Assembly (NCBI GenBank): GCA_030645735.1
Contig: JAUSNP010000003.1
Span: 27,608 to 91,607 of the forward strand
From: Candidatus Moraniibacteriota bacterium
GTDB taxonomy: Bacteria; Patescibacteriota; Minisyncoccia; Moranbacterales; UBA2206
Direction: 5' to 3'
Length of the DNA stretch: 64,000 nucleotides
Shown: positions 48,201 to 64,000 of the stretch, piece by piece
How the letters are laid out: every line of letters starts with the position of its first letter
How positions within the stretch are numbered: position 1 is the stretch's first letter
Translations under genes and position numbers: made by a program
The notes under the pieces: generated by a model
Database searches by the model: none
What the model saw: only the letters and a program-made list of their open reading frames with translations
What the model was told of the DNA's origin: nothing

Positions 48201-48295
48201 AAAATGGCATGATCACCATGGCACAAGATGGAGTTTTGAAAGTGTTGAATGGTGAGACGACGTTGGAAGAAGTGGAGAGAGTTACCGAGATCTAG
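45260..48295 (+). CDS. Tandem-duplicated GspE/PilB-type secretion ATPase. Two complete ATPase cores are fused in one 1011-aa polypeptide.
   Basis: Walker A appears twice (TGPTGSGKTTTLYAIVNKL and TGPTGSGKTTTLYSIVNIL). Asp box / Walker B appears twice (DPDVILVGEIRDEET and NPDIMMIGEIRDDET). His box appears twice (HLVLSTIHTN and HMVLSTIHTN). The tetracysteine motif appears twice (CDCKE...GCPKCNNLGYKGR and CDCKE...GCEKCNNIGYKGR). There is an N-terminal T2SSE_N-like domain. Confidence 0.85.
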   Translation: MPKILHKKSSAEPSKADMQKQEDTQKVLSKMRHQSEEERASAFAAVIGMTYIDTNLIPIETDAIKTLSEEEAHQFNVAVIAKTGKKITVISTDPTVPATLEFLKNLRESNGWELNVFVVSQYNLEKVLDRYKKIVFTDILSQLSVSLTGEDLQKFDEYLKDLTTLKQRINELPTTQILNVMMGGAYKLGASDIHIEPQEKEFRLRYRIDGILHDVAFLPLNVFKTVVNRVKMMSDMKLNLRDIAQDGTFEVNIEDKKIAIRVSIIPGSYGESIVMRILDPASIQVAVENLGLRGLAYEIIQKQINAPSGMILTTGPTGSGKTTTLYAIVNKLNDPETKIITIEDPIEYEVTGISQTQVEKSRGYDFASGLRAIVRQDPDVILVGEIRDEETVDIAINSALTGHLVLSTIHTNSAIATIARMIEMGVKPTLIAPATNAFIGQRLVRKLCDCKEEYTPAKESLESLKKIISIISPKSKLEVPKEIKTLFRPKGCPKCNNLGYKGRMGIFEVFTINEEIEKLIVNFASEAEITMAALEAGMITMLQDGILKSLEGITSIEEVKRATGEGDFLQNIYEKLMASTLGHGVLIEPIHYSTALENIKDFQKLQTVISTSATKDINKIVFAAASILRTGDIHIEPGPDNVKVRFRIDGILQTVVTYPLNEYPNILGEIKILSGVKTEVREGVIDSRFSIKFDEEIPDIKERSVDVRVSIILGGYGETVVMRLLSKASQELDINKLGISEQNKKKIMHEISKPNGVFLNTGPTGSGKTTTLYSIVNILNKPEVKIITVEDPIEYQIEGILQTPTNDKEGYTFATALRALLRQNPDIMMIGEIRDDETAQVAVQAALTGHMVLSTIHTNNAAGAVQRMLNMGVSPSDIASAVNAFMAQRLVRKLCDCKEKISLTTEDKEKIERVLKTISPKAGVEIPAIGEIYTHKGCEKCNNIGYKGRTTISEIFVIDRDIQELINRGAITSELADKATENGMITMAQDGVLKVLNGETTLEEVERVTEI

Positions 48296-51688: not shown

Positions 51689-53671
51689 GTGAAAAATAAA
51701 AACAAAATCAGCTCACTGAAAAAATCGGTTGTAATACTTTTATTTTTCTCCTGCCTCCTGGCAGGTTTTTTTGTACTTGAAAACGATGCCATTGCCGAAG
51801 ACAAAACGATTATTATTAGCGCTGTGCAAACATCAGGACAAACTGCCAATGATGATTTCATAGAGCTATACAACAATACTTGTGCTGATATTGAACTGAC
51901 AAATTGGAAAATCAAACGCAGAACTGCCAGTGGTTCTGAATCAATCATTGGCTCACTAAAAAATACTATTCCTGGCAAAGGCTACTTTCTCTGGAAAAAT
52001 ATCAGCGCCAACTCAGTTGGCAATCCAGATTATGCTACAACTTCTTATTCACTTTCTGATAATTATAGCATTGCTCTTTTTGATTCAACCAACGCGCAAG
52101 TTGATGCATTGACTTGGGGCAACAATCTTTTGCCTTTTGCTGATACCCCATATTATCCTTTGAATTTGAAAGCCTTCGAAACTATTTTACGCAATCTTTC
52201 TGATGAAACCTCTATCCAACTAAATTATGCTCCCAAAAATTCCTCTGTACTCAAAACGGAAGAATTGTCATCTTGCACAATTGAAGATCCAGCACCAGAC
52301 CCAATCGACCCGTCTCCGGCAGAAATTTATTCTGACCAATTGCGCCTCAACGAAATCTTGCCCAATCCAAAAGATGATGAAACCACTGGTGAATTTATCG
52401 AGCTCTACAATGCGGAAGATTTTCCTATTGATTTGGAAAACTGGGGTCTGCAAGATTCTTCCGACACCCAATTTATTTTCCCGGCCGGCTATATTATTGG
52501 TGCTAATGATTATCTAACAATCTACCGTGACATATTTAGATTTGCGCTCAACAATTCTGGACAAGAAGATATTTATCTACTCAATCCCAATGGGGACACG
52601 GTGTCTGAAATAACTTATGAAAACGCCAAAGAAAATGTTTCCTTTAGTTTTGATGAAGCGGATTGGAAATGGACCAAATATTTGACCCCTGACAAAGCCA
52701 ATGAATTTGATGCTGTTTCTCAAATCAAAGCTGAGCATATCAAGGAAGGTTTTGTGGTTTTTCCAATCGAATTTTCACTCGATCCAGATTTTGCTGATTT
52801 TTCTAAAGTAGTTTGGAATTTTGGAGACACCAAAAAAAGTTATCTGAAAAATCCCAAACACACCTATCTCAAAAAGGGCAATTATACTGTAACTGTTTCC
52901 ACTTCTGGAGAAGCTGAAGACACCTCCGATTCATTTGTTTTGAAAATCAAAGATTATCCGCGAGAAAAAGTGGAGATAGTTGGACTCATCCCCAATCCAC
53001 TGGGGACAGACGCGGAGCAAGAATGGATTGAAATCAAAAACAATGAAAAAAATGTGGTGAATCTGAAAGGCTGGAAGCTGGCCACTGGCAAAAAAGTTCT
53101 CGTCAATCACCCAATCAAAGATGATTTTGAAATACAACCAGGCGAAACTGCCCAACTCACACGAGAGCAGGCCTTTTTCACCCTACACAACAAAGCTATG
53201 ATTTTGGAACTGCGCTATCCGGATGGCAAAACTGCTGACCGTGTTTCTTACTCCAAAGAAACTATTGGCGATGATGAGCTATATTCCAAAGAATCTGGTC
53301 GCTGGACTTGGATTTCAGCCGAGGGTGACGAGAGAGCTGCTGAAGATATTTCTGAACCAATCGAAGCCCCTGTGCAAACTGAACCTGAGTCTGAGCCAGT
53401 TCCAGAAGAAGCACTCATAGAAATCGTAGAAGCTGTTCTAGAAGAATCCCCAGAAAACATGGGCAAATTCTCAGTCTCCAATGAGTGGCAAGCCAAGAGA
53501 AAAAATTGGCTAAACTATTTGGCCTATGGGTTGCCAACAAATACTTCGCCGAAATTAGCCTCTGAAAACATCGCTCTGCAAGAAAAATCACAACCCGCAA
53601 CCTCAAATCAAAAAGTTTCCACCAAAAACATTTTCTTGCAAATAAACTCCTTTCTGAATAGTGTTTTGTAA
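51689..53671 (+). CDS. Exported protein with three lamin-tail domains (LTD) and one PKD-like domain
   Basis: Signal/TM anchor, then LTD-like blocks IIISAVQTSGQTANDDFIELYNNTCADIELTNWKIKRR, LNEILPNPKDDETTGEFIELYNAEDFPIDLENWGLQD and IVGLIPNPLGTDAEQEWIEIKNNEKNVVNLKGWKLATGKK. PKD-like WNFGDTKKSYLKNPKHTYLKKGNYTVTVS. Acidic Pro/Glu-rich C-terminal region. Confidence 0.7.
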   Translation: MKNKNKISSLKKSVVILLFFSCLLAGFFVLENDAIAEDKTIIISAVQTSGQTANDDFIELYNNTCADIELTNWKIKRRTASGSESIIGSLKNTIPGKGYFLWKNISANSVGNPDYATTSYSLSDNYSIALFDSTNAQVDALTWGNNLLPFADTPYYPLNLKAFETILRNLSDETSIQLNYAPKNSSVLKTEELSSCTIEDPAPDPIDPSPAEIYSDQLRLNEILPNPKDDETTGEFIELYNAEDFPIDLENWGLQDSSDTQFIFPAGYIIGANDYLTIYRDIFRFALNNSGQEDIYLLNPNGDTVSEITYENAKENVSFSFDEADWKWTKYLTPDKANEFDAVSQIKAEHIKEGFVVFPIEFSLDPDFADFSKVVWNFGDTKKSYLKNPKHTYLKKGNYTVTVSTSGEAEDTSDSFVLKIKDYPREKVEIVGLIPNPLGTDAEQEWIEIKNNEKNVVNLKGWKLATGKKVLVNHPIKDDFEIQPGETAQLTREQAFFTLHNKAMILELRYPDGKTADRVSYSKETIGDDELYSKESGRWTWISAEGDERAAEDISEPIEAPVQTEPESEPVPEEALIEIVEAVLEESPENMGKFSVSNEWQAKRKNWLNYLAYGLPTNTSPKLASENIALQEKSQPATSNQKVSTKNIFLQINSFLNSVL

Positions 53672-55929: not shown

Positions 55930-56053
55930 TCTTGAACATAAGCTTTTCAAGTGTTATCATAAATTCACAGATAATGAACTAATTCAAACGAATTTAAGTG
56001 AACATATTAGCTTTAATTAGCTAAAAATTCGCGCTCTATTCGTGAGTATCTAT

Positions 56054-56776
56054 ATGTCAGGACATAATAAATGGTCGGGAATCAAGCACAGAAAGGCTGC
56101 TGTGGACTCAAAACGCGCTCAGAGCTTCACTAAGCATGCCAAATTGATCACGATCGCGGCGCGTGATGGAGGTGGGGATCCGATCACCAATTTTCAGTTG
56201 CGCCTAGCCATCGATCGGGCACGCTTGGACAATATGCCCAAGGACAACATTGATCGCGCAGTTAAGCGTGGGACAGGTGAACTCAAGGATGGCGCTGAGA
56301 TTGTGGAAATCATCTATGAAGGCGTGGGGCCAGGCAATGTCATGATGCTCATCAAAACCACTACTGACAATCGCAATCGAACTGTCAGTGAAGTCAAAAG
56401 CATCTTCACTAAAAATGGTGGCAAACTGGGTGAAATGGGCAGCGCAATGTGGAACTTCAAAAAAGTCGGCAGCATCGGTGTGTCCATAACTGAAGGTGCT
56501 GACCGAGATGCCTTGGAAGAACAAGCCATCGATGCTGGAGCAGATGACCTGCTTTTTGTGGATGACATTTTGGTGGTCTACACTGCGCCAGAAAATTTGA
56601 AAACTGTGCAAGAAAACTTGGAAAAAGCCGGCCTCAAAATCGAAGCGGCTGAAATGGCTTATCTCCCGCAGCAAACAGTCACCCTTTCCCCTGACCAACA
56701 AATCGACTACGAAAAACTTCTCGAAGTCTTGGATGAGCATGATGATGTTCAAGAAATTTTCGATAACATCGCATAA
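56054..56776 (+). CDS. yebC: YebC/PmpR family DNA-binding regulator
   Basis: MSGHNKWSGIKHRKAAVDSKRAQSFTKHAKLITIAARDGGGDP; start at the internal ATG. Confidence 0.9.
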   Translation: MSGHNKWSGIKHRKAAVDSKRAQSFTKHAKLITIAARDGGGDPITNFQLRLAIDRARLDNMPKDNIDRAVKRGTGELKDGAEIVEIIYEGVGPGNVMMLIKTTTDNRNRTVSEVKSIFTKNGGKLGEMGSAMWNFKKVGSIGVSITEGADRDALEEQAIDAGADDLLFVDDILVVYTAPENLKTVQENLEKAGLKIEAAEMAYLPQQTVTLSPDQQIDYEKLLEVLDEHDDVQEIFDNIA

Positions 56777-56782
56777 TATAAA

Positions 56783-57292
56783 ATGACACAAACTAAACCT
56801 CAAACAATTCGTGTTCTCGGAATAGACCCAGGCACTGCAACTGTGGGCTGGGCAGTTATTGAGGAAAACAACGGGATTTTGCTTCCGGTGGCTTTTGGGC
56901 ATATTTCAACAGAGAAACATAATACCGAAGAACATCGATTGGCGGAGATTTCCAAGGATTTAATTAGCATCATAGAAAAGTTTCAACCCCAAGAAGCGGC
57001 TGTGGAGCAACTTTTCTTTTTCAAAAACCAAAAAACGATCATTTCGGTGGGGCAATCTAGAGGCGGAATTCTCTTGACACTCGAGCAAAAAGGTGTTAGG
57101 ATAGCTAACTATACGCCATTGCAAGTGAAGCAGTCTGTGACGGGCTATGGCAAGGCTGAGAAGAAACAAGTGCAACTTATGGTCAAAAATATTTTGAAGC
57201 TCCAAGCCGTGCCCAAACCGGACGACACGGCCGATGCTATTGCTTTGGCAATTTGTCACATCAATAGTCGCAAAATTTCCAGTCTCATCTAA
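56783..57292 (+). CDS. ruvC: Holliday junction resolvase RuvC
   Basis: IRVLGIDPGTATVGWAVIE and ...DTADAIALAICH catalytic residues, 169 aa. Confidence 0.9.
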   Translation: MTQTKPQTIRVLGIDPGTATVGWAVIEENNGILLPVAFGHISTEKHNTEEHRLAEISKDLISIIEKFQPQEAAVEQLFFFKNQKTIISVGQSRGGILLTLEQKGVRIANYTPLQVKQSVTGYGKAEKKQVQLMVKNILKLQAVPKPDDTADAIALAICHINSRKISSLI

Positions 57293-57318: not shown

Positions 57319-57975
57319 ATGGAATTAAACATTAGCCCAATAATTCATTTTTTTACTAACGAGGGCGTGCCAATCGAAACAATTATTTTACTTTTGATGT
57401 TACCAATCATCGCCACTTTCATCGCTTTCTTGCGACAAGTGGTTGGAATCAAGGCTTTCGGCATCTACACACCGCTTATTATAACCTTCGCTTTTTTGGC
57501 CACCAATGGCTTGCGCTATGGCGTAGCAATTTTTTTGGCGGTTATTTTTATCGGCATGCTTATGCGTTTTGTGATGAAGCCTTTTCGTTTGCTCTATCTG
57601 CCACGCGTAGCTATTATGCTCACCATTGTTTCCCTAACAATCTTAGTGATGCTAGTTTTAGGTGGCAATCAAAGACGCACGGGACTGGCATCAGTTTCTA
57701 TTTTTCCAATCTTGATTATGATTACACTCGTAGAAAAATTTGTAGCTGTGCAAATCGAGAAGGGCAACAAGACAGCTCTGATTTTGGCTTTTGAAACTTT
57801 GATCATTTCTATCTTCGGTTTCTACATCGCGAGTTGGAAACCACTTATTGAAATCCTGATTGGTTACCCATGGCTTATTCTATTGACTATTCCAATGAAT
57901 ATTGTAATCGGCAAATGGACAGGACTCCGCATCAGTGAATATTTCCGCTTCAGACACATAATCAAACAACTCTAA
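57319..57975 (+). CDS. Seven-TM membrane protein (resembles the 7TM module of 7TM-transglutaminase partners of ATP-grasp systems but lacks the soluble domain)
   Basis: Seven hydrophobic helices in 218 aa. First gene of the ATP-grasp operon. Confidence 0.55.
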   Translation: MELNISPIIHFFTNEGVPIETIILLLMLPIIATFIAFLRQVVGIKAFGIYTPLIITFAFLATNGLRYGVAIFLAVIFIGMLMRFVMKPFRLLYLPRVAIMLTIVSLTILVMLVLGGNQRRTGLASVSIFPILIMITLVEKFVAVQIEKGNKTALILAFETLIISIFGFYIASWKPLIEILIGYPWLILLTIPMNIVIGKWTGLRISEYFRFRHIIKQL

Positions 57976-58080
57976 TCGTGTAACGCAAAACGTGGATCGC
58001 AAAACGCACATCTCCATGACGCAAAGCAAAAAACTGCGTTATGCGATATGCGTTCTACGATTTGCGAATATTCTATGTTT
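57975..58080. repeat. Repeat block related to 43441..43545 (inverted copy aacgcaaaacgtggatcgcaaaacgc plus direct tgcgttatgcgatat), at the boundary between the 7TM gene and the ATP-grasp fusion gene
   Basis: gcgttttgcgatccacgttttgcgtt (the reverse complement here) matches gcgttttgcgttccacgttttgcgtt in tsaE. tgcgttatgcgatat is shared in direct orientation. Confidence 0.7.
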
Positions 58081-59478
58081 GAATTTTTCAAAAACAGTCG
58101 CAAGCTTTTAGGCATGAACTCAAGAAATCTTGAGTTCATTCGGCCGTTCAATCGCGCCAAGGCCAAACGATTGGCGGACAACAAAATGCGCAGTAAGCGT
58201 GTGCTGAAAAAGAATGGCATTTCTGTTTCCAAACTGATTGCCACCATCAAAACAATTGAGGACTTGGAAAATTTTGATTGGCAAAAGTTGCCCAATAGCT
58301 TTGCCTTGAAACCTAATCGCGGTTTTGGTGGTGAAGGAATTGTTGTCGTCTATGGCAAGAAAAAGGGCCGCGATGATGCCTGGGTCAAAGCTGATCGCTC
58401 CCTCATCACCATTGAAGATTTAGTTAGTCACATTCGCAACATTTTGGACGGTTCTTTTTCACTTTCCAACACGCCTGACTTTGCTTTTTTTGAAGAACGC
58501 TTACAACTTTTGAAGTTATTCAAGCCCTATTCATATAAAGGTATTCCTGATATTCGCGTGATTGTTTTCAACAAAATTCCTGTGATGGCCATGTTGCGCT
58601 TGCCTACTAAAGAATCCGGTGGCAAGGCCAACTTGCATCAAGGCGCTATCGGGGTGGGTATCGACTTAGCTACTGGCGTAACAACCACCGCTATTCAAAA
58701 CAATCGCCTGATTGAAAAAATTCCTGGTACGCAACTTTCTACCAGTGGTTTGCGTATTCCCTATTGGAAGGATATTTTATTTTTAGCCACCAAGGCGCAA
58801 GAAATTTCTGGGCTAGGTTATCTGGGGGCTGACATCGCCATCGACAAAGAAAACGGTCCAACCATTTTGGAACTCAATGCCCGCCCAGGACTCGCCATTC
58901 AAGTGGCTAATTTGGCAGGTCTTGCGGAAAGACTCAAAAGAGTTTCTGGGATCAAGATAAAAACCGTCGAAAAAGGCGTACGCGTGGGCATGGATCTTTT
59001 TGGTGGAGAAATTGAAGAAGAACTAGAGGAAATTTCTGGTCGGAAAGTCATTGGCACAGTGGAAAAAGTGAAAATTACTGGTAAAAATGGCAAGGAAGTT
59101 GAGGTTGAAGCTAGAATAGATACTGGCGCCGGCATATCCGCCATCAGCAAAGAATTGGCCATCGAACTAGGCTTTGACGAAGCAGTTCGTTATTGGGAGG
59201 AATTTAATCTGGACAAGGTTCTCTCTGAAGAAGAAATACAAAAACTTAGCGCCAACAAAACTTGGAAGGAATTAGAAAAACATCCTGATATTGTGGGCGT
59301 CGCAAAAACATATTCCGCTCATGGCGCAACTTATCGAATAGAAATCAAAGTTTCATTATTAATAGATAATCTGGCTGTCCTATCAAAACTGTCCATTTCC
59401 AACAGAAGTGGTCTTGCCTATCCAATTCTTATCGGCCGCAGAGATCTGAATAAGTTTTTAATAGATGTAAAAAAATGA
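58048..59478 (+). CDS. ATP-grasp ligase (alpha-L-glutamate-ligase-like / ATPgrasp_ST type) fused to a C-terminal retropepsin-like aspartyl-protease (DUF785 / 'ATP-dependent zinc protease'-type) domain
   Basis: N-terminal GMNSRNLEFIRPFNRAKAKRLADNKMRSKRVLKKNGISVSKL, then an ATP-grasp core (GGEGIVVVYGKK..., ...LGYLGADIAIDKENGPTILELNARPGL). C-terminal EVEARIDTGAGISAISKELAIELGF carries the D-T-G-A signature. The true start is probably downstream (58078 or 58114), because the annotated start lies inside a repeat element. Confidence 0.6.
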   Translation: MRSTICEYSMFEFFKNSRKLLGMNSRNLEFIRPFNRAKAKRLADNKMRSKRVLKKNGISVSKLIATIKTIEDLENFDWQKLPNSFALKPNRGFGGEGIVVVYGKKKGRDDAWVKADRSLITIEDLVSHIRNILDGSFSLSNTPDFAFFEERLQLLKLFKPYSYKGIPDIRVIVFNKIPVMAMLRLPTKESGGKANLHQGAIGVGIDLATGVTTTAIQNNRLIEKIPGTQLSTSGLRIPYWKDILFLATKAQEISGLGYLGADIAIDKENGPTILELNARPGLAIQVANLAGLAERLKRVSGIKIKTVEKGVRVGMDLFGGEIEEELEEISGRKVIGTVEKVKITGKNGKEVEVEARIDTGAGISAISKELAIELGFDEAVRYWEEFNLDKVLSEEEIQKLSANKTWKELEKHPDIVGVAKTYSAHGATYRIEIKVSLLIDNLAVLSKLSISNRSGLAYPILIGRRDLNKFLIDVKK

Positions 59479-60452
59479 TAAAAAATCCGCCACTAATTAA
59501 AAAGATTGTCGAAGAAATGGGTGGGACTTTTGAAGAGGTCGTTCCCGAACGCGGTTGCTATTATATTCATGTGAAAGGCAAGGTTTTTATGATTACCCGA
59601 AAATTTAGAATTGCTAAAAATTTCATTAGTGTTGCTGGAGCAACTGCTTACAAAGATTTAACCTATACTTTGCTCAAGCGGCAGTCCCTTCCTACGCCTA
59701 CTACAGTTTTTTTCTTTAGAAAAAATTTCAAACCAGCAGACATTAAAAACAAATTGTTGGATATGCAATTTCCAATAATTATTAAGGATTCCGCTGGTTC
59801 AAATAGCCAGGGTATTTTTCCATATATAAAAAATTTAAAGGAAGCTCAATCTATTATAAACAAAGAGATTTTGAATTTCAGATCACTCATCGCCCAAGAA
59901 ATGATTTTTGGCAAAGAATATCGCATTTTAATTTTGGACGACAAAGTTATCGGGGCATTAGAAATGATCCCGCCACGAGTTTTTGGTGATGGAAAATCTA
60001 CAATTGCGCAACTAATCGCAGAAAAGCAAAAACATACTCATCGCAAGACGCCTATCGATCCGGCTCTAAAAATAATCCTGCAAGAACAAGGCTTTTCCCT
60101 TGATTCTGTTCTAGCTGCTAATGAGATTGTCTCAATCAAAAAAAGTTCTTCTCTGGCAGAGGGCGGGGAAACTCGCGATGTCACCGAACTAGTTAATAAA
60201 AAAATTGTTGCTATTTGCGCGCAAGCGTCTGACGCTATTGGCGATTATCTAGCTGGTATTGATATAATCTGCGAAGACATTTCAAAAAATCCAACCACGC
60301 AAACATTCGGCATTTTAGAAATAAACGGCAAGCCTGATATTTATATTCACTACAACCCAACTTTTGGAAAATCTAGAAATGTCATAAAGGACATCATAAA
60401 TTTTATTCTGAAATTGAGCACCACACAAAAAAGTGCCCTATCAAAAAAATAA
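59475..60452 (+). CDS. ATP-grasp ligase, cyanophycin-synthetase-N-terminal-like
   Basis: EYRILILDDKVIGALEMIPPRVFGDGKSTIAQLIAEKQ resembles the CphA/Mur-associated ATP-grasp core. C-terminal GIDIICEDI...GILEINGKPDI. The start overlaps the upstream stop (ATGA). Confidence 0.55.
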   Translation: MIKNPPLIKKIVEEMGGTFEEVVPERGCYYIHVKGKVFMITRKFRIAKNFISVAGATAYKDLTYTLLKRQSLPTPTTVFFFRKNFKPADIKNKLLDMQFPIIIKDSAGSNSQGIFPYIKNLKEAQSIINKEILNFRSLIAQEMIFGKEYRILILDDKVIGALEMIPPRVFGDGKSTIAQLIAEKQKHTHRKTPIDPALKIILQEQGFSLDSVLAANEIVSIKKSSSLAEGGETRDVTELVNKKIVAICAQASDAIGDYLAGIDIICEDISKNPTTQTFGILEINGKPDIYIHYNPTFGKSRNVIKDIINFILKLSTTQKSALSKK

Positions 60453-60455
60453 CCT

Positions 60456-61379
60456 ATGAAAAAGATTCTGCTAATTGGCATTGGGGAAGAAAATAGCCCC
60501 AAACAATATCTTCCGCCTGCCTTTAAAAAAAATGCAATGCCTTTTATCTATGCAAAGTGGTCAGACTTATCTTTTCAAGGAAAAGATGTTTTCGTTGGAC
60601 AAATCAAGCTTGACTTCAAAAATATAAAGACTGTTATTTTTGATATTTTTCGCTTTCCTATTATAAAAAAGGTGAGCAAGCAAGCCTTTAACTATAATTT
60701 GGAGAACGAGTTTAATATTTTGCTTAATATTCTAAAAGAAAAAGGAATTTACACGCCTAACCATACATTCTTTTTGCAATACCCTTTTTATAATAAATTC
60801 TCACAGATGCACATATTTGCTAGCAAAAAAATCCCCACTATTTCAACCTTGCACCTGTGCGATAACAAAAAAAACAAAGTCCTTAGTTTGCTCAAAAAAC
60901 AATCCATACCCTTTCCCTTAGTCGCCAAAGAAAGTTATGGAGGTGGCGGAAATAATGTTTGGAAAATATCCAATAAAAAAGCGTTGGAAAGTTTTATTGA
61001 AAATCGCAGGAATATCAATACTGTATTCCAGCCTTATATAAAAAATGATGCTGATTATAGAGCTATTGTGATAAATGGGGAATGTATTGGGCTAATGAAA
61101 AGAAGCGCCCAGAAGGGTCAGTGGAAAAACAATTTTTCGCTCGGTGGAAAAGTACAAAAATATATCGATCCCAAGATGAGTCGTTTTGCCGTCAATGTTT
61201 GCAAGAAAATGGGGCTTGAAATGGTGGGGTTAGATATTCTCGCCACCAAAAATGGGTTTGTGATAATTGAGGCTAATTTATTTTTTGGCCTTGATGGATT
61301 TCAATCAGTCCATCCAGAAATAAATATAGCCGAAAAAATAATAAAATTAATTTCAACTAAAAACATATGCAAAAAGTGA
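60456..61379 (+). CDS. RimK-like ATP-grasp ligase
   Basis: FPLVAKESYGGGGNNVWKI, DYRAIVINGECIGLMKRSAQKGQWKNNFSLGGK, MVGLDILATKNGFVIIEANLFFGLDG. Confidence 0.6.
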   Translation: MKKILLIGIGEENSPKQYLPPAFKKNAMPFIYAKWSDLSFQGKDVFVGQIKLDFKNIKTVIFDIFRFPIIKKVSKQAFNYNLENEFNILLNILKEKGIYTPNHTFFLQYPFYNKFSQMHIFASKKIPTISTLHLCDNKKNKVLSLLKKQSIPFPLVAKESYGGGGNNVWKISNKKALESFIENRRNINTVFQPYIKNDADYRAIVINGECIGLMKRSAQKGQWKNNFSLGGKVQKYIDPKMSRFAVNVCKKMGLEMVGLDILATKNGFVIIEANLFFGLDGFQSVHPEINIAEKIIKLISTKNICKK

Positions 61380-62323
61380 TGATTCTCTTCGGCAAAAGCG
61401 ACTGGCGCAAGGCCAAGCCGTTTGCTAATAAGGACTACCAGTATTCTTATGAATACTTCTATTCTTTGTGTAAAAAAAACAACATTCAGATGTATCGAGC
61501 CTCCTACCAATGGTACGACCACACAAACAATCTTTTCAAATATGCTTGGCTCTATGAAGGAGAGGGTGGCAAGTGGAAGAAAGTTAAAAATATAAAACCC
61601 GCCTTAGTTTATGACAAAACCAAGGCTCGCATGGAAGTCTACCACATCAAGGAATTGATAGGCCAAAATTATCCATTCATAAATGATCAGATTTTTACAA
61701 GATTAATTGATGATAAATTCACTACTAGTTTAATTTTTGAAAAATGGAGTAAAAAAAATTGGCTGATACAAAATCATGCTGACTTGAAAAAAACTCTCCC
61801 AAAAATAACAACTAGTAAAGTCGTGCTAAAGCCACTGATGGAAAGCGGCGGCAAAGGCGTTCAGGTTTTGAACAAAAAAGACGCTGCGAGCAAGGCTCAG
61901 ATTGAGGGGGTGAGTTTGATTCAGGATTTCATCGATTCATCCAACGGCGTTCCGGGCGTAAGCACGGCCATGCATGATTTGCGCGTTGTTATGATCAATG
62001 AAAAAATTATCTATGCCTACATCAGAGAGCCTCAGGCGGGCAGTTACCTGGCTAATTTGGCTCAAGGCGGATCCCTGAAAATTGTACCTAAAGAAAAATT
62101 GCCAAAAGCCCTTTTGCCTATTATAAATTTCGCTAACAACGCTCTCGCCTCGTTTAACCCTAGAATTTTTTCCATCGATTTTATGTTTGATGAAAATAAA
62201 AAACCTTGGGTAGTAGAATTGAATTCTATGCCAGGCCTGTTTTTTACTCCAGAAGAAAAGCCCTATATGCTAGAAATGTATGCTGAGCTACTCCAGGTTT
62301 TTAAAACTGCTTTAAAAAAATAA
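61367..62323 (+). CDS. RimK-like ATP-grasp ligase
   Basis: VVLKPLMESGGKGVQVL, HDLRVVMINEKIIYAYIREPQAGSYLANLAQGGS, IFSIDFMFDENKKPWVVELNSMPGLFF. Overlaps the upstream gene by 13 nt. Confidence 0.55.
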   Translation: MQKVMILFGKSDWRKAKPFANKDYQYSYEYFYSLCKKNNIQMYRASYQWYDHTNNLFKYAWLYEGEGGKWKKVKNIKPALVYDKTKARMEVYHIKELIGQNYPFINDQIFTRLIDDKFTTSLIFEKWSKKNWLIQNHADLKKTLPKITTSKVVLKPLMESGGKGVQVLNKKDAASKAQIEGVSLIQDFIDSSNGVPGVSTAMHDLRVVMINEKIIYAYIREPQAGSYLANLAQGGSLKIVPKEKLPKALLPIINFANNALASFNPRIFSIDFMFDENKKPWVVELNSMPGLFFTPEEKPYMLEMYAELLQVFKTALKK

Positions 62324-62334
62324 TTTGATCCTTT

Positions 62335-63219
62335 ATGCGTATCTGCGTGATTACCGACTCTGCCTCGTCTTATGCCTCAAAAAGATTTCTAGCCGAATCC
62401 CTTCTGTTAAATATTGATCTGACTTTTGTTTCTTGGAAAGACATCTTCTTCAATGGAGAAAGCGGAGATGTTTTTTTTGATACGGATTCGCAAATTTCCA
62501 TAAAAAAATTTGATGCCGTAGTGTTGCGCAGTTCACTCGCTTCCATAACCCCGCAATCGCTGCTTGTTGAATATTGCCAGAGCCAAAAGATTCCACTTCT
62601 CAACGACATTTTTTATTCAAGATACCAGAGCACCAACAAATTGCGCCAGCAAATGCTGTTCTCATCTAAAAATATCCCTTGTCTAAAAACAATTTATAGC
62701 GAAACTGCTCCGTTTAGTTATCTAAAAAAATCTCTTGGCCTGCCTTTTGTCGCAAAAATGGCCAGTGGCAGCCTAGGAAAACAAGTATTTAAAATATGCT
62801 CAGAATCTGAATTTGAATTATTCATAAAAAACCGGAAAAGAGACCGCAAATTATATATTTTTCAAAAATTTTATAAGAACACTGGGGATTATAGGATGTT
62901 TATTATCGGCAAAGAAATTTTTGGCCCCGTTAAACGAATTGCCAAAAAAGGTGAATGGATAACAAACCTAGCTGGCTCGACACATGCACGAGCGCCGAAA
63001 AATAAAAAAACAACTACTTTGGTTGAGGATCTCGCTAAGAAAATAGGCTTAGAATTTGGAGGTATTGACGTTCTTATTGATTCAAAGGGCGTAGCGCGCA
63101 TTATTGAGATAAACACCATGGCCCAATTTAAAGTTTTTGAATCGGTTTTTCCTGAAATAAATATTGCCCAAAAAACCTTATTATTGTTAAAATCTAGGTT
63201 GCGCGCTTCTGGCAAATAA
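62335..63219 (+). CDS. RimK-like ATP-grasp ligase
   Basis: LPFVAKMASGSLGKQVFKI, DYRMFIIGKEIFGPVKRIAKKGEWITNLAGSTHA, GGIDVLIDSKGVARIIEINTMAQF. Confidence 0.6.
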   Translation: MRICVITDSASSYASKRFLAESLLLNIDLTFVSWKDIFFNGESGDVFFDTDSQISIKKFDAVVLRSSLASITPQSLLVEYCQSQKIPLLNDIFYSRYQSTNKLRQQMLFSSKNIPCLKTIYSETAPFSYLKKSLGLPFVAKMASGSLGKQVFKICSESEFELFIKNRKRDRKLYIFQKFYKNTGDYRMFIIGKEIFGPVKRIAKKGEWITNLAGSTHARAPKNKKTTTLVEDLAKKIGLEFGGIDVLIDSKGVARIIEINTMAQFKVFESVFPEINIAQKTLLLLKSRLRASGK

Positions 63220-63340
63220 ACTCTCTCTTAACACTTGATAAATAACCCAAAATATTATAAAATAGTAACTATCTTTGCAAGAAATCTTGCAAAATTTAAA
63301 AAGGCTTTGATCAGCCCTATTAAGCAATAATATCTATTTT

Positions 63341-64000
63341 ATGAAACATGTTTTTATCGCCTTCAAGGACTTCAAAAGTGCTTCTACGCAAGACCGCTGG
63401 AAGATGATTCGCCAATGGTCACTCTACGTGGCCGGTGTTTTTGTCATTCTTACGATTGGAGTTTTTGCCTATTTTGCCAAAGATTTGCCGGATGCCAGCG
63501 GTGTCAGCAAGCGAGCGATGGTGGAGTCAACCAAGATTTATGACCGCACTGGTGATCATTTGCTCTATGATATTCATGGCGAAGAAAAGCGCACCCAGAT
63601 CCAGTTCAAGGATATGCCCGATACCATCAAATTTGCCACCATCTCACTGGAAGACCAAAATTTCTATTCTCACCCTGGCTTTGATGTGAAGGGCTTACTC
63701 AATGCCGTTATCTCAAATGTTTTGCAAAGTGGTGGTGGCCGAGGAGGATCTACTATAACTCAACAATTTGTTAAAAATTCCATCCTGACTGGTGAGCGAT
63801 CAATGTCACGTAAAATCAAAGAATTAATCCTAGCTATTGAGTTGGAATTTAAATTCTCTAAAGATGAGATTTTGGGCATGTACCTCAATGAAATCCCGTA
63901 TGGCTCCAATGCCTATGGGATTGAGGCGGCGGCGCAAACTTTTTTCGGCAAACATGCTTCGCAACTAACGCTAGATGAATCAGCTCTTTTGGCGTCCCTG
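63341..64000 (+). CDS. Class A penicillin-binding protein, N-terminal transglycosylase domain (partial; runs off the window end)
   Basis: N-terminal TM, then GT51 motifs ISLEDQNFYSHPGFD, RGGSTITQQFVKN, KIKELILAIELE, ILGMYLNEIPYG. Confidence 0.8.
   Translation, partial: MKHVFIAFKDFKSASTQDRWKMIRQWSLYVAGVFVILTIGVFAYFAKDLPDASGVSKRAMVESTKIYDRTGDHLLYDIHGEEKRTQIQFKDMPDTIKFATISLEDQNFYSHPGFDVKGLLNAVISNVLQSGGGRGGSTITQQFVKNSILTGERSMSRKIKELILAIELEFKFSKDEILGMYLNEIPYGSNAYGIEAAAQTFFGKHASQLTLDESALLASL

What the first reader, a model, noticed from the sequence alone, without database searches (positions are those of the whole stretch)
57319..63219. Six-gene ATP-grasp operon (7TM protein, ATP-grasp::retropepsin fusion, four more ATP-grasp ligases) ending next to a class A PBP: candidate ribosome-independent peptide-building or peptide-tagging system
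What the sequence shows:
- Six same-strand genes are packed with overlapping or near-overlapping stops and starts. There is an ATGA overlap at 59475/59478 and a 13-nt overlap at 61367/61379. Other gaps are 3-12 nt.
- Gene 1 is a 218-aa protein with seven hydrophobic helices and no soluble domain.
- Gene 2 begins with the GMNSRNLEFIRPFN...KLADNK...SKRVLKKNGI pattern of 'alpha-L-glutamate-ligase-like / sugar-transfer-associated' ATP-grasp enzymes. It has an ATP-grasp C-terminal core (ILELNARPGL). It then ends with VEARIDTGAGISAIS, a D-T-G-A retropepsin-type signature of the kind found in the DUF785 / 'ATP-dependent zinc protease' family.
- Genes 3 to 6 are four further ATP-grasp ligases. One is cyanophycin-synthetase-N-like (EYRILILDDKVIGALEMIPPRVFGDGKSTIAQLI). 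Three are RimK-like (DYRAIVINGECIG...KGQWKNNFSLGG; HDLRVVMINEKIIYAYIREPQAGSYLANLAQGGS; DYRMFIIGKEIFGPVKRIAKKGEWITNLAGSTHA). Each has the E.N..PG nucleotide-binding tail.

Established knowledge: comparative-genomics work on amidoligases has predicted that three-gene modules of an ATP-grasp ligase, a 7TM(-transglutaminase) protein and a retropepsin-like protease make or modify peptides at the membrane. No product has been demonstrated.

Inference: this locus fuses the protease to the ligase, drops the transglutaminase domain, and adds four paralogous ligases, enough for stepwise assembly of a short peptide or poly-amino-acid tail. It sits between ruvC and a PBP transglycosylase gene, so a cell-envelope product is plausible. 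I do not recognise this architecture as described.
Basis: partly seen in the sequence, partly recalled or inferred. Interest (0 to 1): 0.85.

Follow-up and report, generated by a model that had tools for sequence, protein, structure and literature searches.

The report
Rlo-like peptide ligase–protease operon, CPR variant
This is a real six-gene operon in a Moranbacteria (CPR) genome, a fused and expanded version of the recently named Rlo membrane-protein, ATP-grasp ligase and retropepsin system; its two-gene core is conserved across CPR phyla, while its extra ligases and part of its protease are swapped between strains, and its product is still unknown.

Summary
All six ORFs exist at the stated coordinates with the stated overlaps and domains.
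- g1 is a 7TM_transglut membrane protein with no transglutaminase domain.
- g2 is an RloC-type ATP-grasp (PF14397) fused to a retropepsin. The retropepsin fold is confirmed: pLDDT 92, best PDB matches RloA2, RloA and DUF785, then HIV protease.
- g3 resembles the G domain of cyanophycin synthetase. g4 to g6 are RimK-like.
- All five ligase domains keep the catalytic residues. None reaches the cut-off of a primary-metabolism family.

It is rloABC of Pseudomonas (mBio 2025), related to RimK/RimB and the RimBK hybrid (JBC 2025). Those proteases cut poly-glutamate.

The g1-g2 pair is not unique to this locus. It is adjacent in all 79 related loci that have upstream DNA, across many Patescibacteria phyla. 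The accessory ligases vary from 0 to 4 per locus, and the window has the most. PBP adjacency is limited to Moranbacteria.

New here: the segment from the DTGA codons of g2 to the g6-PBP spacer is a recombining cassette, and the retropepsin body is dimorphic.

Best model: a membrane-docked system that writes and trims an acidic peptide tail. I rate it a new variant of a known kind, interest about 0.6.

The parts
57319..57975 (+). g1: RloB-like 7TM membrane protein without the transglutaminase domain. Predicted N-terminus out and basic C-terminal tail in. Conserved cytoplasmic tail motif G-L-R204-x-x-E207-x-x-R210-F211.
   Evidence: PF14402 8.7e-30 and NCBIfam RloB positions 313-507/508. Hydropathy and positive-inside rule. 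Tail motif conserved in 78-79 of 79 homologues. Directly upstream of g2 in all 79 loci with upstream DNA.
58048..59478 (+). g2: RloC-type ATP-grasp ligase fused to a C-terminal retropepsin. The longest ORF starts at 58048; the likely true start is Met10 at 58075.
   Evidence: PF14397 1.1e-68, TIGR02291 304.9 bits, PF05618 27.6 bits, RloA3 1.3e-9. The 120 best-scoring database hits all carry both domains. The alignment across CPR phyla keeps K88, R170, D262, E275, N277 and D358-T359 invariant.
58123..58947 (+). g2 ATP-grasp domain (residues 26-300).
   Evidence: Pfam match. Foldseek of the full model hits ArgX/LysX, CphA1 G domain, RimK and Ddl.
59002..59031 (+). Acidic flexible linker GGEIEEELEE (residues 319-328) just before the protease domain.
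   Evidence: Conserved among close homologues: F318, G319, G320, E321, E325, E327 are invariant. pLDDT is below 50 at residues 322-325. The linker is not acidic in Microgenomates-type homologues.
59047..59469 (+). g2 retropepsin domain (residues 334-474). Catalytic DTGA at 59119-59130. R356, R430 and R453 align with the poly-Glu-binding K46, R114 and R137 of RloA. C-terminal I-G463-R-R-D motif.
   Evidence: Profile against PDB: 9g59 1e-10, 9g58 1e-9, 2pma 2e-7, then Ddi1 and ApRick. Domain model pLDDT 92; Foldseek top hits are RloA2, Lpg0085 and RloA, then HIV-1, SFV and Ddi1 proteases. Residue roles are from PMC12239564.
59131..63229 (+). Variable, recombining cassette: retropepsin body (residues 362-466) plus g3-g6, bounded by the DTGA codons on the left and the g6-PBP spacer on the right.
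   Evidence: Against L003, the flanks are 85-88% (left) and 80% (right) nt-identical, but homology stops at 59130 and resumes at 63230. The same left breakpoint (59129-59131) is seen against L037, L009, L029, L008 and L015. The retropepsin body is dimorphic: 63-86% or 27-40% identity, with no intermediates, decoupled from the ATP-grasp domain.
59475..60452 (+). g3: stand-alone ATP-grasp ligase resembling the G domain of cyanophycin synthetase and the C-terminal domain of GshAB.
   Evidence: TIGR02068 6e-50 over positions 212-473/862 (170 bits against cut-off 850). PDB phmmer: CphA1 5.7e-28, GshAB 6e-23. Catalytic K/R/D/E/N present. Orthologues at 40% identity or more in 7 loci.
60456..61379 (+). 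g4: RimK-like ATP-grasp ligase.
   Evidence: PF08443 1.4e-27. TIGR00768 119.9 bits (cut-off 143.4). PDB RimK 3e-14. Orthologues in 3 loci.
61367..62323 (+). g5: divergent RimK/TTL-like ATP-grasp ligase.
   Evidence: PF08443 1e-13, PF14397 2.8e-11, PF03133 TTL 2.7e-8. PDB RimK only 3.5e-4. Orthologues in 11 loci.
62335..63219 (+). g6: RimK/LysX-like ATP-grasp ligase.
   Evidence: TIGR00768 5e-28 (98 bits against cut-off 143), LysX 3e-21. PDB RimK 1e-9. Orthologues in only 2 loci.
56042..57292 (+). Conserved left flank: yebC (56042-56776) and ruvC (56783-57292). Tightly packed with g1 (26-nt gap), so possibly co-transcribed. This is context, not part of the system.
   Evidence: Pfam. The synteny yebC-ruvC-g1-g2 is found only in Moranbacteria-type loci.
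63341..64000 (+). Conserved right flank: start of a class A PBP (it runs off the window). This is context.
   Evidence: Sequence. The full 839-aa gene with Transgly + Transpeptidase on L001. A PBP lies downstream in 33 loci, all Moranbacteria-type.

Best explanation
The locus encodes a Patescibacteria-type version of the Rlo/Rim ligase-plus-retropepsin system. It makes and trims a peptide tail, without the ribosome, at the cytoplasmic face of the membrane.

Shown:
- g1 is a 7TM protein of the RloB family. It has an invariant cytoplasmic C-terminal motif.
- g2 carries a catalytically intact RloC-type ATP-grasp domain and a retropepsin domain. The retropepsin keeps the DTG(A) and G-R motifs and the three basic residues that bind poly-glutamate in RloA.
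- g3 to g6 are four further intact ATP-grasp ligases. Their nearest characterised relatives (RimK, CphA G domain, LysX/ArgX, GshB) all join an amino acid to a carboxylate at the C-terminal residue of a peptide or protein.
- g1 and g2 are always adjacent.

Inferred:
- g2 docks on the g1 tail. It uses ATP to add acidic residues, most likely glutamate, one after another to the C-terminal carboxylate of an acceptor that is still unidentified, or it makes a free polymer.
- The retropepsin domain acts as a dimer, so g2 must oligomerise. It limits or resets chain length, as RimB does for RimK, and may stimulate the ligase.
- g3 to g6 are optional tailoring ligases that extend, cap or branch the chain with other residues. 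Other lineages add a MATCAP-type carboxypeptidase, a methyltransferase or more ligases.
- g1 anchors, gates or exports the product, which gives the system its link to the envelope.
- The ligase set and the substrate-binding body of the protease are exchanged by recombination, so related strains probably make different tails.
For: Family assignments and thresholds are.

Retropepsin:
- Profile against PDB: RloA structures 9g59/9g58 at 1e-10 and 1e-9.
- Domain model pLDDT 92, with RloA2, DUF785 and RloA as top folds, followed by HIV-1 protease.
- D358 and T359 are invariant; G360, A361, R430 and R453 are nearly invariant; G463 is invariant over 32 sequences from many CPR phyla.
- R430 and R453 align with the ERPVI and DRS arginines of 9g59. 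By spacing these are RloA R114 and R137, the residues whose loss abolishes poly-Glu cleavage and complementation (PMC12239564).

Ligases: all five ATP-grasp domains share the equivalents of K88, R170, D262, E275 and N277. The nearest solved relatives are CphA-G, GshAB and RimK.

Coupling of the parts:
- g1-g2 adjacency holds in 79 of 79 loci with upstream DNA.
- Natural fusions include retropepsin::7TM::ATPgrasp_ST (P0223), ATPgrasp_ST::retropepsin::second ATP-grasp (P0268) and ATPgrasp_ST::retropepsin::MATCAP (P0132, P0269).
- A MATCAP carboxypeptidase occurs in 8 loci and a methyltransferase in 9 loci.

Functional precedent:
- RimB cleaves poly-Glu tails and stimulates RimK, and the RimBK hybrid is proteolytically active (PMC11957791).
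- Loss of rloB or rloC rescues the triple rloA mutant, so the ligase and the 7TM protein make something that the protease must process (PMC12239564).

Cassette exchange is documented.
Against: - No substrate, product or acceptor is known for any Rlo-type system, so 'acidic tail' rests on protease homology alone.
- In Pseudomonas the protease is periplasmic, and in the P0223 fusion it lies on the opposite side of the membrane from the ligase. In g2 it is cytoplasmic. Either the site of trimming differs between variants or the export idea is wrong.
- The window encodes no protein with an acidic C-terminus or a D/E run of 5 or more that could serve as an acceptor.
- D. psychrophila RimBK showed no glutamylation of the heterologous P. 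fluorescens SBW25 RpsF it was tested on, so fused enzymes need not behave like RimK.
- g2 scores just under the TIGR02291 cut-off.
- The Pfam family is named 'sugar-transfer associated'. Some loci carry a GT4 glycosyltransferase, and one fusion carries a YdjC deacetylase. The acceptor could therefore be a glycan rather than a peptide.
- 24 of 80 loci have no accessory ligase directly after g2.
Confidence: 0.55

Rival explanations
1. Cell-wall or surface-glycopolymer tailoring. The ligases attach amino acids to a carboxylate on a peptidoglycan stem or cross-bridge, or on a uronic-acid or teichoic-like polymer. The 7TM protein handles the lipid-linked or exported intermediate, and the protease edits the attached peptide.
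For: - A class A PBP lies immediately downstream in the window and in 33 Moranbacteria loci.
- PF14397 is named 'sugar-transfer associated ATP-grasp'.
- A GT4 glycosyltransferase occurs in 5 loci, and a YdjC-like deacetylase is fused to a g2 homologue in P0137.
- rlo mutants show altered cell shape and ampicillin sensitivity, and the Vibrio rlo genes belong to the VxrAB cell-wall-damage regulon (PMC12239564).
Against: - PBP adjacency is absent from all non-Moranbacteria loci (L039-L081). The flanks yebC and ruvC are housekeeping genes, so the position looks like inherited synteny.
- The nearest characterised relatives act on peptide C-termini, not on sugars.
- Ddl-type and archaeal pseudomurein ATP-grasp models score only 15-34 bits.
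- The protease family is specific for poly-Glu.
Confidence: 0.17
2. Cytoplasmic protein tailing under membrane control. The system works like RimK/RimB and polyglutamylates ribosomal protein S6 or another cytoplasmic protein. g1 is a transmembrane sensor that switches the ligase on or off in response to envelope or osmotic state. Nothing is exported.
For: - In g2 both the ligase and the protease are cytoplasmic (no signal peptide; fusion order), as in RimK/RimB and RimBK.
- Microgenomates g1 homologues carry a signal peptide and an extracellular N-terminal extension of about 80 aa that could sense something.
- The Rlo phenotype is osmotic.
Against: - g2 is of RloC type, not RimK type (TIGR00768 only 46.8 bits against a cut-off of 143.4).
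- In Pseudomonas, Rlo and Rim are genetically separate pathways.
- The window's g1 has only 18 residues outside the membrane, which leaves little to sense with.
- A hypervariable ligase cassette is hard to reconcile with a conserved housekeeping target.
Confidence: 0.15
3. A RiPP (graspetide-type) biosynthetic cluster. The ATP-grasp enzymes macrocyclise a ribosomal precursor peptide, and the retropepsin removes the leader.
For: - Graspetide clusters have been reported in CPR bacteria (PMC8939145).
- There are weak hits of g4 and g6 to MvdC/MvdD/SAV_5884-type maturases (E 6e-3 to 1e-5).
Against: - There is no precursor-like small ORF in or beside the operon. The only intergenic ORFs are not peptide-like and are not conserved.
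- RimK and CphA models score far higher than the maturase models.
- The core pairs with a 7TM RloB-type protein, which graspetide clusters do not have.
Confidence: 0.03
4. A coincidental cluster of unrelated housekeeping ATP-grasp enzymes (Ddl, glutathione, cyanophycin or lysine/arginine biosynthesis) placed beside the Rlo-like pair.
For: All four hit broad ATP-grasp models, including GSH-S_ATP, LysX and CphA.
Against: - None reaches an equivalog cut-off.
- g3 lacks the N and M domains of CphA.
- The genes overlap translationally.
- 67 of 80 loci have same-strand ATP-grasp genes near g2, which form 39 clusters at 40% identity.
- Natural fusions join g2 to a second ATP-grasp.
Confidence: 0.03

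Closest known systems
rloABC operon of Pseudomonas aeruginosa (Lormand et al., mBio 2025, PMC12239564): RloA secreted retropepsin, RloB 7TM plus inactive transglutaminase, RloC ATP-grasp
   Same: - It has the same three protein families: PF05618 retropepsin, PF14402 7TM and PF14397/TIGR02291-type ATP-grasp.
- The genes are adjacent and on the same strand.
- The protease keeps DTG and the basic residues that bind poly-Glu. The best structural matches of the g2 C-domain are the RloA and RloA2 crystal structures.
   Different: - The protease is fused to the C-terminus of the ligase and has no signal peptide, so it is cytoplasmic rather than periplasmic.
- The 7TM protein lacks the transglutaminase domain.
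- One to four extra ATP-grasp ligases follow in most loci.
- The host is Patescibacteria rather than Gammaproteobacteria.
- The ligase cassette and the protease body recombine between strains.
RimK/RimB and the RimBK hybrid (Desulfotalea psychrophila DP2392; JBC 2025, PMC11957791)
   Same: - An ATP-grasp ligase is paired or fused with a cytoplasmic PF05618 retropepsin.
- g4 and g6 are RimK-like.
- It sets the precedent that the protease both trims poly-Glu and stimulates the ligase.
   Different: - The domain order is opposite (RimB is N-terminal in RimBK).
- The g2 ligase belongs to the RloC/ATPgrasp_ST family, not the RimK family (46.8 bits against a cut-off of 143.4).
- The Rim system has no 7TM partner.
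- The Rim target is ribosomal protein S6. No such target is identified here.
Cyanophycin synthetase CphA1 (G domain)
   Same: g3 aligns with the ATP-grasp G domain (positions 212-473), which extends a peptide C-terminus with aspartate.
   Different: g3 is 325 aa and lacks the N domain and the Mur-ligase-like M domain. It scores 170 bits against a cut-off of 850, so it is not a cyanophycin synthetase.
Eukaryotic tubulin C-terminal tail enzymes (TTL/TTLL ATP-grasp ligases with MATCAP carboxypeptidases). This is an analogy from established knowledge; it was not tested here.
   Same: ATP-grasp 'writers' are combined with peptidase 'erasers'. g5 has a TTL-family hit (PF03133, 2.7e-8). MATCAP-family peptidases occur in 8 related loci and are fused to g2 homologues (P0132, P0269).
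   Different: The window itself has no MATCAP gene. No tubulin-like acceptor is known. The resemblance is one of logic, not of orthology.

Membership tests
Rlo system (RloABC) | RloC-type ATP-grasp ligase (PF14397 / TIGR02291 'alpha-L-glutamate ligase-like') | tested here: met
   PF14397 scores 231.9 bits (cut-off 31.4). TIGR02291 scores 304.9 bits, just under its cut-off of 314.2. That TIGR02291 is the RloC family is my own knowledge; I did not check it against the Pseudomonas sequence.
Rlo system (RloABC) | RloB: 7TM module (PF14402) encoded next to the ligase | tested here: met
   PF14402 8.7e-30. NCBIfam RloB matches positions 313-507/508. Adjacent in 79 of 79 loci.
Rlo system (RloABC) | RloB: N-terminal periplasmic inactive transglutaminase domain | tested here: not met
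   g1 is 218 aa with only 18 residues before TM1. The RloB model matches only its C-terminal half, 77 bits against a cut-off of 900. Longer homologues have a signal peptide plus a low-complexity segment, not a transglutaminase domain.
Rlo system (RloABC) | RloA: separate, secreted retropepsin with a signal peptide | tested here: not met
   The retropepsin is residues 334-474 of the cytoplasmic ligase polypeptide. There is no signal peptide and no separate gene.
Rlo system (RloABC) | Retropepsin fold with catalytic DTG and basic poly-Glu-binding residues | tested here: met
   DTGA is conserved. R356, R430 and R453 align with RloA K46, R114 and R137. Foldseek top hits are 9g59, 2pma and 9g58.
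Rlo system (RloABC) | Role in hypo-osmotic tolerance, cell shape and antibiotic tolerance; rloB/rloC loss suppresses rloA loss | not testable with these tools
   This is a genetic phenotype, and the organism is uncultured.
RimK/RimB, RimBK hybrid | RimK-family ligase (TIGR00768) as the partner of the protease | tested here: not met
   g2 scores 46.8 bits against a cut-off of 143.4. g4 (119.9) and g6 (98.2) are closer but also below the cut-off.
RimK/RimB, RimBK hybrid | [quoted passage not shown] | tested here: not met
   The order in g2 is ligase then protease. RimBK order is from PMC11957791.
RimK/RimB, RimBK hybrid | Polyglutamylation of the ribosomal protein S6 C-terminus | not testable with these tools
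   S6 is not in the window, and no acidic-tailed ORF is present.
Cyanophycin synthetase | N domain + ATP-grasp G domain + Mur-ligase-like M domain; score at or above the curated cut-off | tested here: not met
   g3 covers only model positions 212-473, at 170 bits against a cut-off of 850.
Graspetide / RiPP ATP-grasp maturases | Adjacent precursor peptide gene and an MvdC/MvdD-type ligase | tested here: not met
   There is no plausible precursor ORF. Maturase models score 15-25 bits against cut-offs of 350-475.
Primary-metabolism ATP-grasp enzymes (Ddl, GshB, LysX/ArgX, PurD/PurK) | Score at or above the NCBIfam equivalog cut-off | tested here: not met
   The best scores are LysX 75 bits (cut-off 276), GshB 39 bits (272), Ddl 34 bits (243) and PurD 17 bits (288).
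Known anti-phage defence systems (PADLOC) | Any component matching a PADLOC model | tested here: not met
   No hits for any of the six proteins.

The most novel reading that the evidence does not exclude
Patescibacteria carry a conserved, membrane-docked 'peptide-tail code' machine. A core ligase::protease on a 7TM platform is combined with interchangeable writer ligases (39 or more subfamilies) and erasers (retropepsin alleles, MATCAP carboxypeptidases). These are shuffled by recombination between strains. Each strain would then build a different non-ribosomal peptide tail on an envelope or host-contact molecule, in the way capsule or O-antigen loci vary, but made of amino acids. This could matter for the episymbiotic lifestyle of these bacteria.
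Probability: 0.2. Interest if true: 0.85.

Novelty: new variant of a known kind. Interest (0 to 1): 0.6.

Why it matters
The Rlo module affects osmotic tolerance, cell shape, biofilm formation and antibiotic sensitivity in Pseudomonas, yet its chemistry is unknown.

The CPR form is a natural minimal version. It has two core genes, the protease is fused to the ligase, and there is no transglutaminase domain. That should make biochemical reconstitution easier.

Its natural variation gives testable handles on substrate and product. The variation includes 0 to 4 extra ligases, two protease alleles and fusions to MATCAP or to a second ligase.

For CPR biology, a system kept in genomes of about 1 Mb across many phyla, with as many as five ATP-grasp ligases in one operon, is probably important for the envelope or for host interaction. 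The sharp recombination boundaries suggest diversifying selection on whatever it makes.

Tried and rejected
- A single-sequence search of g2 against PDB found nothing. A profile of the C-domain was needed.
- Foldseek of the whole g2 model returned only ATP-grasp hits. A separate C-domain model was needed.
The AFDB library was unavailable.
- Iyer et al. 2009 (PMC3268129) is not held, so the original prediction of the three-gene module could not be read. What I say about it is from memory and from its citation in PMC12239564.
- Literature searches for a description of the CPR architecture found none. A search linking MATCAP/DUF1704 to ATP-grasp found nothing.
- The RiPP/graspetide reading was rejected: there is no precursor ORF and the maturase scores are weak.
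- The defence-system reading was rejected, as there are no PADLOC hits.
- A search for an acceptor with an acidic C-terminus or a D/E run in the window found nothing.
- The promoter and terminator scan was uninformative. Promoter-like sites were near shuffle expectation (22 found against 18.3 expected, sd 4.7). Terminator-like sites were somewhat above it (14 against 8.2, sd 3.4), but none marked an operon boundary.
- An error of mine: the 'pbpN' query used was 1 nt out of frame, because the PBP ATG is at 63341. Its percentage identities are meaningless. PBP presence was re-established from the ORF cluster and the gene call.
- The retropepsin allele type does not correlate cleanly with accessory-ligase content, so strict co-variation of specificities is not supported.
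- The contiguous-ligase count used a 400-nt gap rule and phmmer E<1e-3, so it undercounts more distant or divergent ligases.

Full report
OBSERVATION. The ATGA overlap of g2/g3 and the 13-nt overlap of g4/g5 are real. The g3-g4 gap is 3 nt and the g5-g6 gap is 11 nt. The g1-g2 gap is 72 nt, or 99 nt if g2 begins at Met10 (58075), as in the NCBI model (P0001, 467 aa) and in the homologue alignment. YebC and RuvC precede the operon. A class A PBP follows, with its ATG at 63341. An identical contig and the 100% NCBI hit identify the organism as a Candidatus Moranbacteria MAG, that is, Patescibacteria/CPR. The rest of the window is ordinary chromosome: PolA, DnaG, RpoD, pyruvate kinase and a Mur ligase.

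DOMAINS.
- g1 matches PF14402 7TM_transglut at 8.7e-30 and only the C-terminal 7TM half of NCBIfam RloB (positions 313-507/508). It has about seven hydrophobic segments, 18 residues before TM1 and a basic C-terminal tail (5 K/R), so the predicted topology is N-terminus out, C-terminus in.
- g2 matches PF14397 ATPgrasp_ST at 1.1e-68 (residues 26-300) and TIGR02291 at 304.9 bits, just under the 314.2 cut-off. It also matches PF05618 (now called 'RimB-like') at 27.6 bits against a cut-off of 27 (residues 334-474), and RloA3 at 1.3e-9.
- g3 matches the G domain of cyanophycin synthetase (6e-50, positions 212-473/862) and the GshAB C-domain.
- g4, g5 and g6 match the RimK family at 1e-34, 9e-16 and 5e-28. 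g5 also hits TTL (2.7e-8).
- No gene reaches the curated cut-off of Ddl, GshB, LysX, PurD, CphA or a RiPP maturase.
- All five ATP-grasp domains share the equivalents of K88, R170, D262, E275 and N277, so all look active.
- The closest solved relatives are CphA1 and GshAB for g3 and RimK and LysX/ArgX for g4 to g6.

RETROPEPSIN TEST.
- A profile of the C-domain from 32 CPR homologues hits PDB 9g59 (1e-10), 9g58 (1e-9) and 2pma (2e-7), then Ddi1 and ApRick.
- 9G58 and 9G59 are the RloA and RloA2 structures of Lormand et al..
- A model of residues 328-476 has pLDDT 92 and pTM 0.84. Its best Foldseek matches are RloA2, Lpg0085 (DUF785) and RloA, followed by HIV-1, foamy-virus and Ddi1 proteases.
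- D358 and T359 are invariant. G360, A361, R430 and R453 are nearly invariant. G463 of the I-G-R-R-D motif is invariant.
- R430 and R453 align with the ERPVI and DRS arginines of 9g59. By spacing these are RloA R114 and R137, whose alanine mutants lose poly-Glu cleavage and complementation. R356 matches K46 (PMC12239564).

WHAT IS KNOWN. The ATP-grasp, 7TM-transglutaminase and retropepsin module now has a name and phenotypes.
- It is rloABC of P. aeruginosa (PMC12239564).
- RloA enzymes are secreted retropepsins that cut runs of 8 or more glutamates.
- A triple rloA mutant is sensitive to hypo-osmotic stress, misshapen, poor at biofilm formation and antibiotic-sensitive.
- Deleting rloB or rloC rescues that mutant. 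The product is unknown.
- The related cytoplasmic pair RimK/RimB polyglutamylates ribosomal protein S6 and trims the tail. RimB also stimulates poly-Glu synthesis by RimK.
- A RimB(N)::RimK(C) hybrid from Desulfotalea is proteolytically active (PMC11957791).
- g2 is therefore an independent fusion of the same two activities, in the opposite order and with an RloC-type ligase rather than a RimK-type one.

DISTRIBUTION.
- All 120 listed hits, the best of 7,899 with E <= 1e-5, are 451-503 aa and carry PF14397; 118 of them also carry PF05618.
- Eighty genome loci were recovered. They come from Moranbacteria, Dojkabacteria/WS6, Woesebacteria, Microgenomates, Shapiro-, Kaiser-, Beckwith-, Levyi- and Collierbacteria.
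- Some MAGs are labelled Bdellovibrionales or Gammaproteobacteria. These have CPR-like synteny, and one is an 0.81-Mb chromosome, so I regard the labels as unreliable.
- g1 lies directly upstream of g2 on the same strand in all 79 loci that have upstream DNA.
- The g1 family keeps a cytoplasmic tail motif, G-L-R204-x-x-E207-x-x-R210-F211, in 78-79 of 79 members.
- Microgenomates-type g1 proteins add a signal peptide and an extracellular low-complexity stretch of about 80 aa, not a transglutaminase domain.
- yebC-ruvC upstream and the PBP downstream are found only in Moranbacteria-type loci.

ACCESSORY GENES.
- The number of ATP-grasp genes directly after g2 is 0 in 24 loci, 1 in 30, 2 in 18, 3 in 7 and 4 in only the window. 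Some are double-ligase fusions of 590-646 aa.
- Within 10 kb there are 125 same-strand accessory ligases in 67 loci. They form 39 clusters at 40% identity or more. The window's g3, g4, g5 and g6 types occur in 7, 3, 11 and 2 loci.
- No other locus has the full g3-g4-g5-g6 set. L009 has g3-g4-g5.
- Other recurrent neighbours are a SAM methyltransferase (9 loci), a MATCAP/DUF1704 metallopeptidase (8 loci), an 801-aa ATP-grasp protein (6 loci) and a GT4 glycosyltransferase (5 loci).
- A search of 1.84 billion representatives with the C-domain found 267 clusters at E <= 1e-3. These include several natural fusions:
  - ATPgrasp_ST::retropepsin::MATCAP (P0132, P0269);
  - ATPgrasp_ST::retropepsin::second ATP-grasp (P0268, seen on several contigs);
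  - ATPgrasp_ST::retropepsin::YdjC (P0137);
  - retropepsin::7TM::ATPgrasp_ST (P0223), which holds all three core parts in one chain.
- These fusions support physical and functional coupling of the ligase to the 7TM tail, to further ligases and to a carboxypeptidase.

MOSAIC CASSETTE (new, beyond the finding).
- L003 is the closest relative on the left flank. At the amino-acid level YebC is 95% identical, RuvC 97%, g1 94% and the g2 ATP-grasp domain 95%. The retropepsin domain is only 41% identical.
- At the nucleotide level, homology of 85-88% runs to window position 59130, exactly the DTGA codons. It then vanishes until 63230 in the g6-PBP spacer (80% onward), apart from g5 at 64%.
- The same left breakpoint (59129-59131) appears against L037, L009, L029, L008 and L015. 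In L037 and L009 homology resumes at 59444, the end of g2.
- Among 44 close homologues the retropepsin body (residues 362-466) is either 63-86% identical (26 sequences) or 27-40% identical (18 sequences), with nothing in between. The second group has the higher ATP-grasp identity, 78-94% against 68-86%.
- The window itself is a mosaic. Its core is closest to L003, its protease body to L002, its g3 to g5 to L009 (81, 70 and 72%) and its g6 to L015 (56%).
- The protease allele and the ligase content are not strictly linked.

MECHANISM. I think the most likely mechanism (confidence 0.55) is as follows.
- g2 docks on the conserved cytoplasmic tail of g1.
- Its RloC-type ATP-grasp domain adds acidic residues to a C-terminal carboxylate, or makes a free polymer.
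- The fused retropepsin, active as a dimer, trims the chain and possibly stimulates the ligase, as RimB does.
- g3 to g6 are optional tailoring ligases.
- g1 anchors, gates or exports the product.
- The family memberships, active-site conservation, adjacency and fusions are shown. The substrate, the acidic nature of the product, docking and export are inferred.
- The main difficulty is the location of the protease. It is cytoplasmic here but extracytoplasmic in RloA and in the P0223 fusion.

RIVALS.
- Tailoring of peptidoglycan or a surface glycopolymer (0.17).
- RimK-like modification of a cytoplasmic protein, with g1 as a sensor (0.15).
- A graspetide RiPP cluster (0.03): no precursor ORF was found.
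- Unrelated housekeeping ligases (0.03).
- No PADLOC defence model matches.

NOVELTY. I found no paper that describes the CPR architecture. Iyer et al. 2009 could not be read. The system is a new variant of a known kind (Rlo/Rim ligase-retropepsin systems). What is new:
- the C-terminal fusion to an RloC-type ligase;
- the loss of the transglutaminase domain;
- conservation across CPR;
- the variable ligase cassette with sharp recombination boundaries;
- the dimorphic protease body.

Interest is about 0.6. It remains substantial, because the chemistry is unsolved and this minimal, naturally varied form could make it tractable.

Noticed in passing
window 59131-63229; compared with L003, L037, L009, L029, L008, L015: There are sharp recombination boundaries. 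Nucleotide homology to close relatives stops at the DTGA codons of g2 (59129-59131) and resumes in the g6-PBP spacer (about 63230). In L037 and L009 it resumes at the end of g2 (59444). The accessory ligases and the protease body behave as an exchangeable cassette.
   Followed up: yes
window 59131-59445 (g2 residues 362-466): The retropepsin body is dimorphic among 44 close homologues: 63-86% or 27-40% identity, with no intermediates. It is decoupled from the ATP-grasp domain. It also carries a helical insert of about 45 aa that is absent from Microgenomates-type homologues.
   Followed up: partly
window 59002-59031 (g2 residues 319-328): A conserved, disordered acidic linker, GGEIEEELEE, lies immediately before a protease domain whose relatives cut Glu-rich sequences. 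It could be a self-processing site or a pseudo-substrate. It is not acidic in Microgenomates-type homologues.
   Followed up: no
P0223, P0132, P0269, P0268, P0137 (representative library): These are rare natural multi-domain fusions: retropepsin::7TM::ATP-grasp, ATP-grasp::retropepsin::MATCAP, ATP-grasp::retropepsin::second ATP-grasp and ATP-grasp::retropepsin::YdjC. In P0223 the protease must lie on the opposite side of the membrane from the ligase, unlike in g2. Most have only 1-2 members, so some could be gene-call artefacts.
   Followed up: partly
P0192 (539 aa): A class I lysyl-tRNA synthetase carries a partial PF05618 retropepsin segment at its C-terminus. It is an odd combination and possibly an artefact.
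   Followed up: no
L034:10628-12259 and 7 other loci; L073:7273-7962 and 8 other loci: MATCAP/DUF1704-family metallopeptidase genes and SAM-methyltransferase genes recur downstream of g2 homologues. This points to further 'eraser' and tailoring steps.
   Followed up: partly
window 63274-63293: A perfect 8-bp inverted repeat, TTTGCAAG-AAAT-CTTGCAAA, lies between a promoter-like site (63235-63263) and the PBP start (63341). It could be an operator or a 5'-UTR hairpin for the PBP gene.
   Followed up: no
window 45260-48295 (+): A 1011-aa PilB/GspE-type ATPase (PF00437, 754 bits) matches in two stretches and is about twice the usual length. It may be a tandem duplication or carry an insertion such as an intein.
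   Followed up: no
window 51689-53671 (+); L001 2962-4944: A 660-aa protein with LTD and PKD domains, likely a surface protein, lies a few kb upstream, next to a bPH_2 membrane protein and ruvB.
   Followed up: no
window 59476, 60450, 61377, 62321, 63217 (C-termini of g2 to g6): All five ATP-grasp proteins end in Lys: -VKK, -SKK, -CKK, -LKK and -SGK. This is probably compositional in an AT-rich genome, but it is noted.
   Followed up: no
L008, L010-L012, L045 and others: Several 'binchicken' MAGs labelled Bdellovibrionales, Gammaproteobacteria or Pseudomonadales carry CPR-type synteny. One is an 0.81-Mb chromosome. The taxonomic labels look wrong.
   Followed up: no
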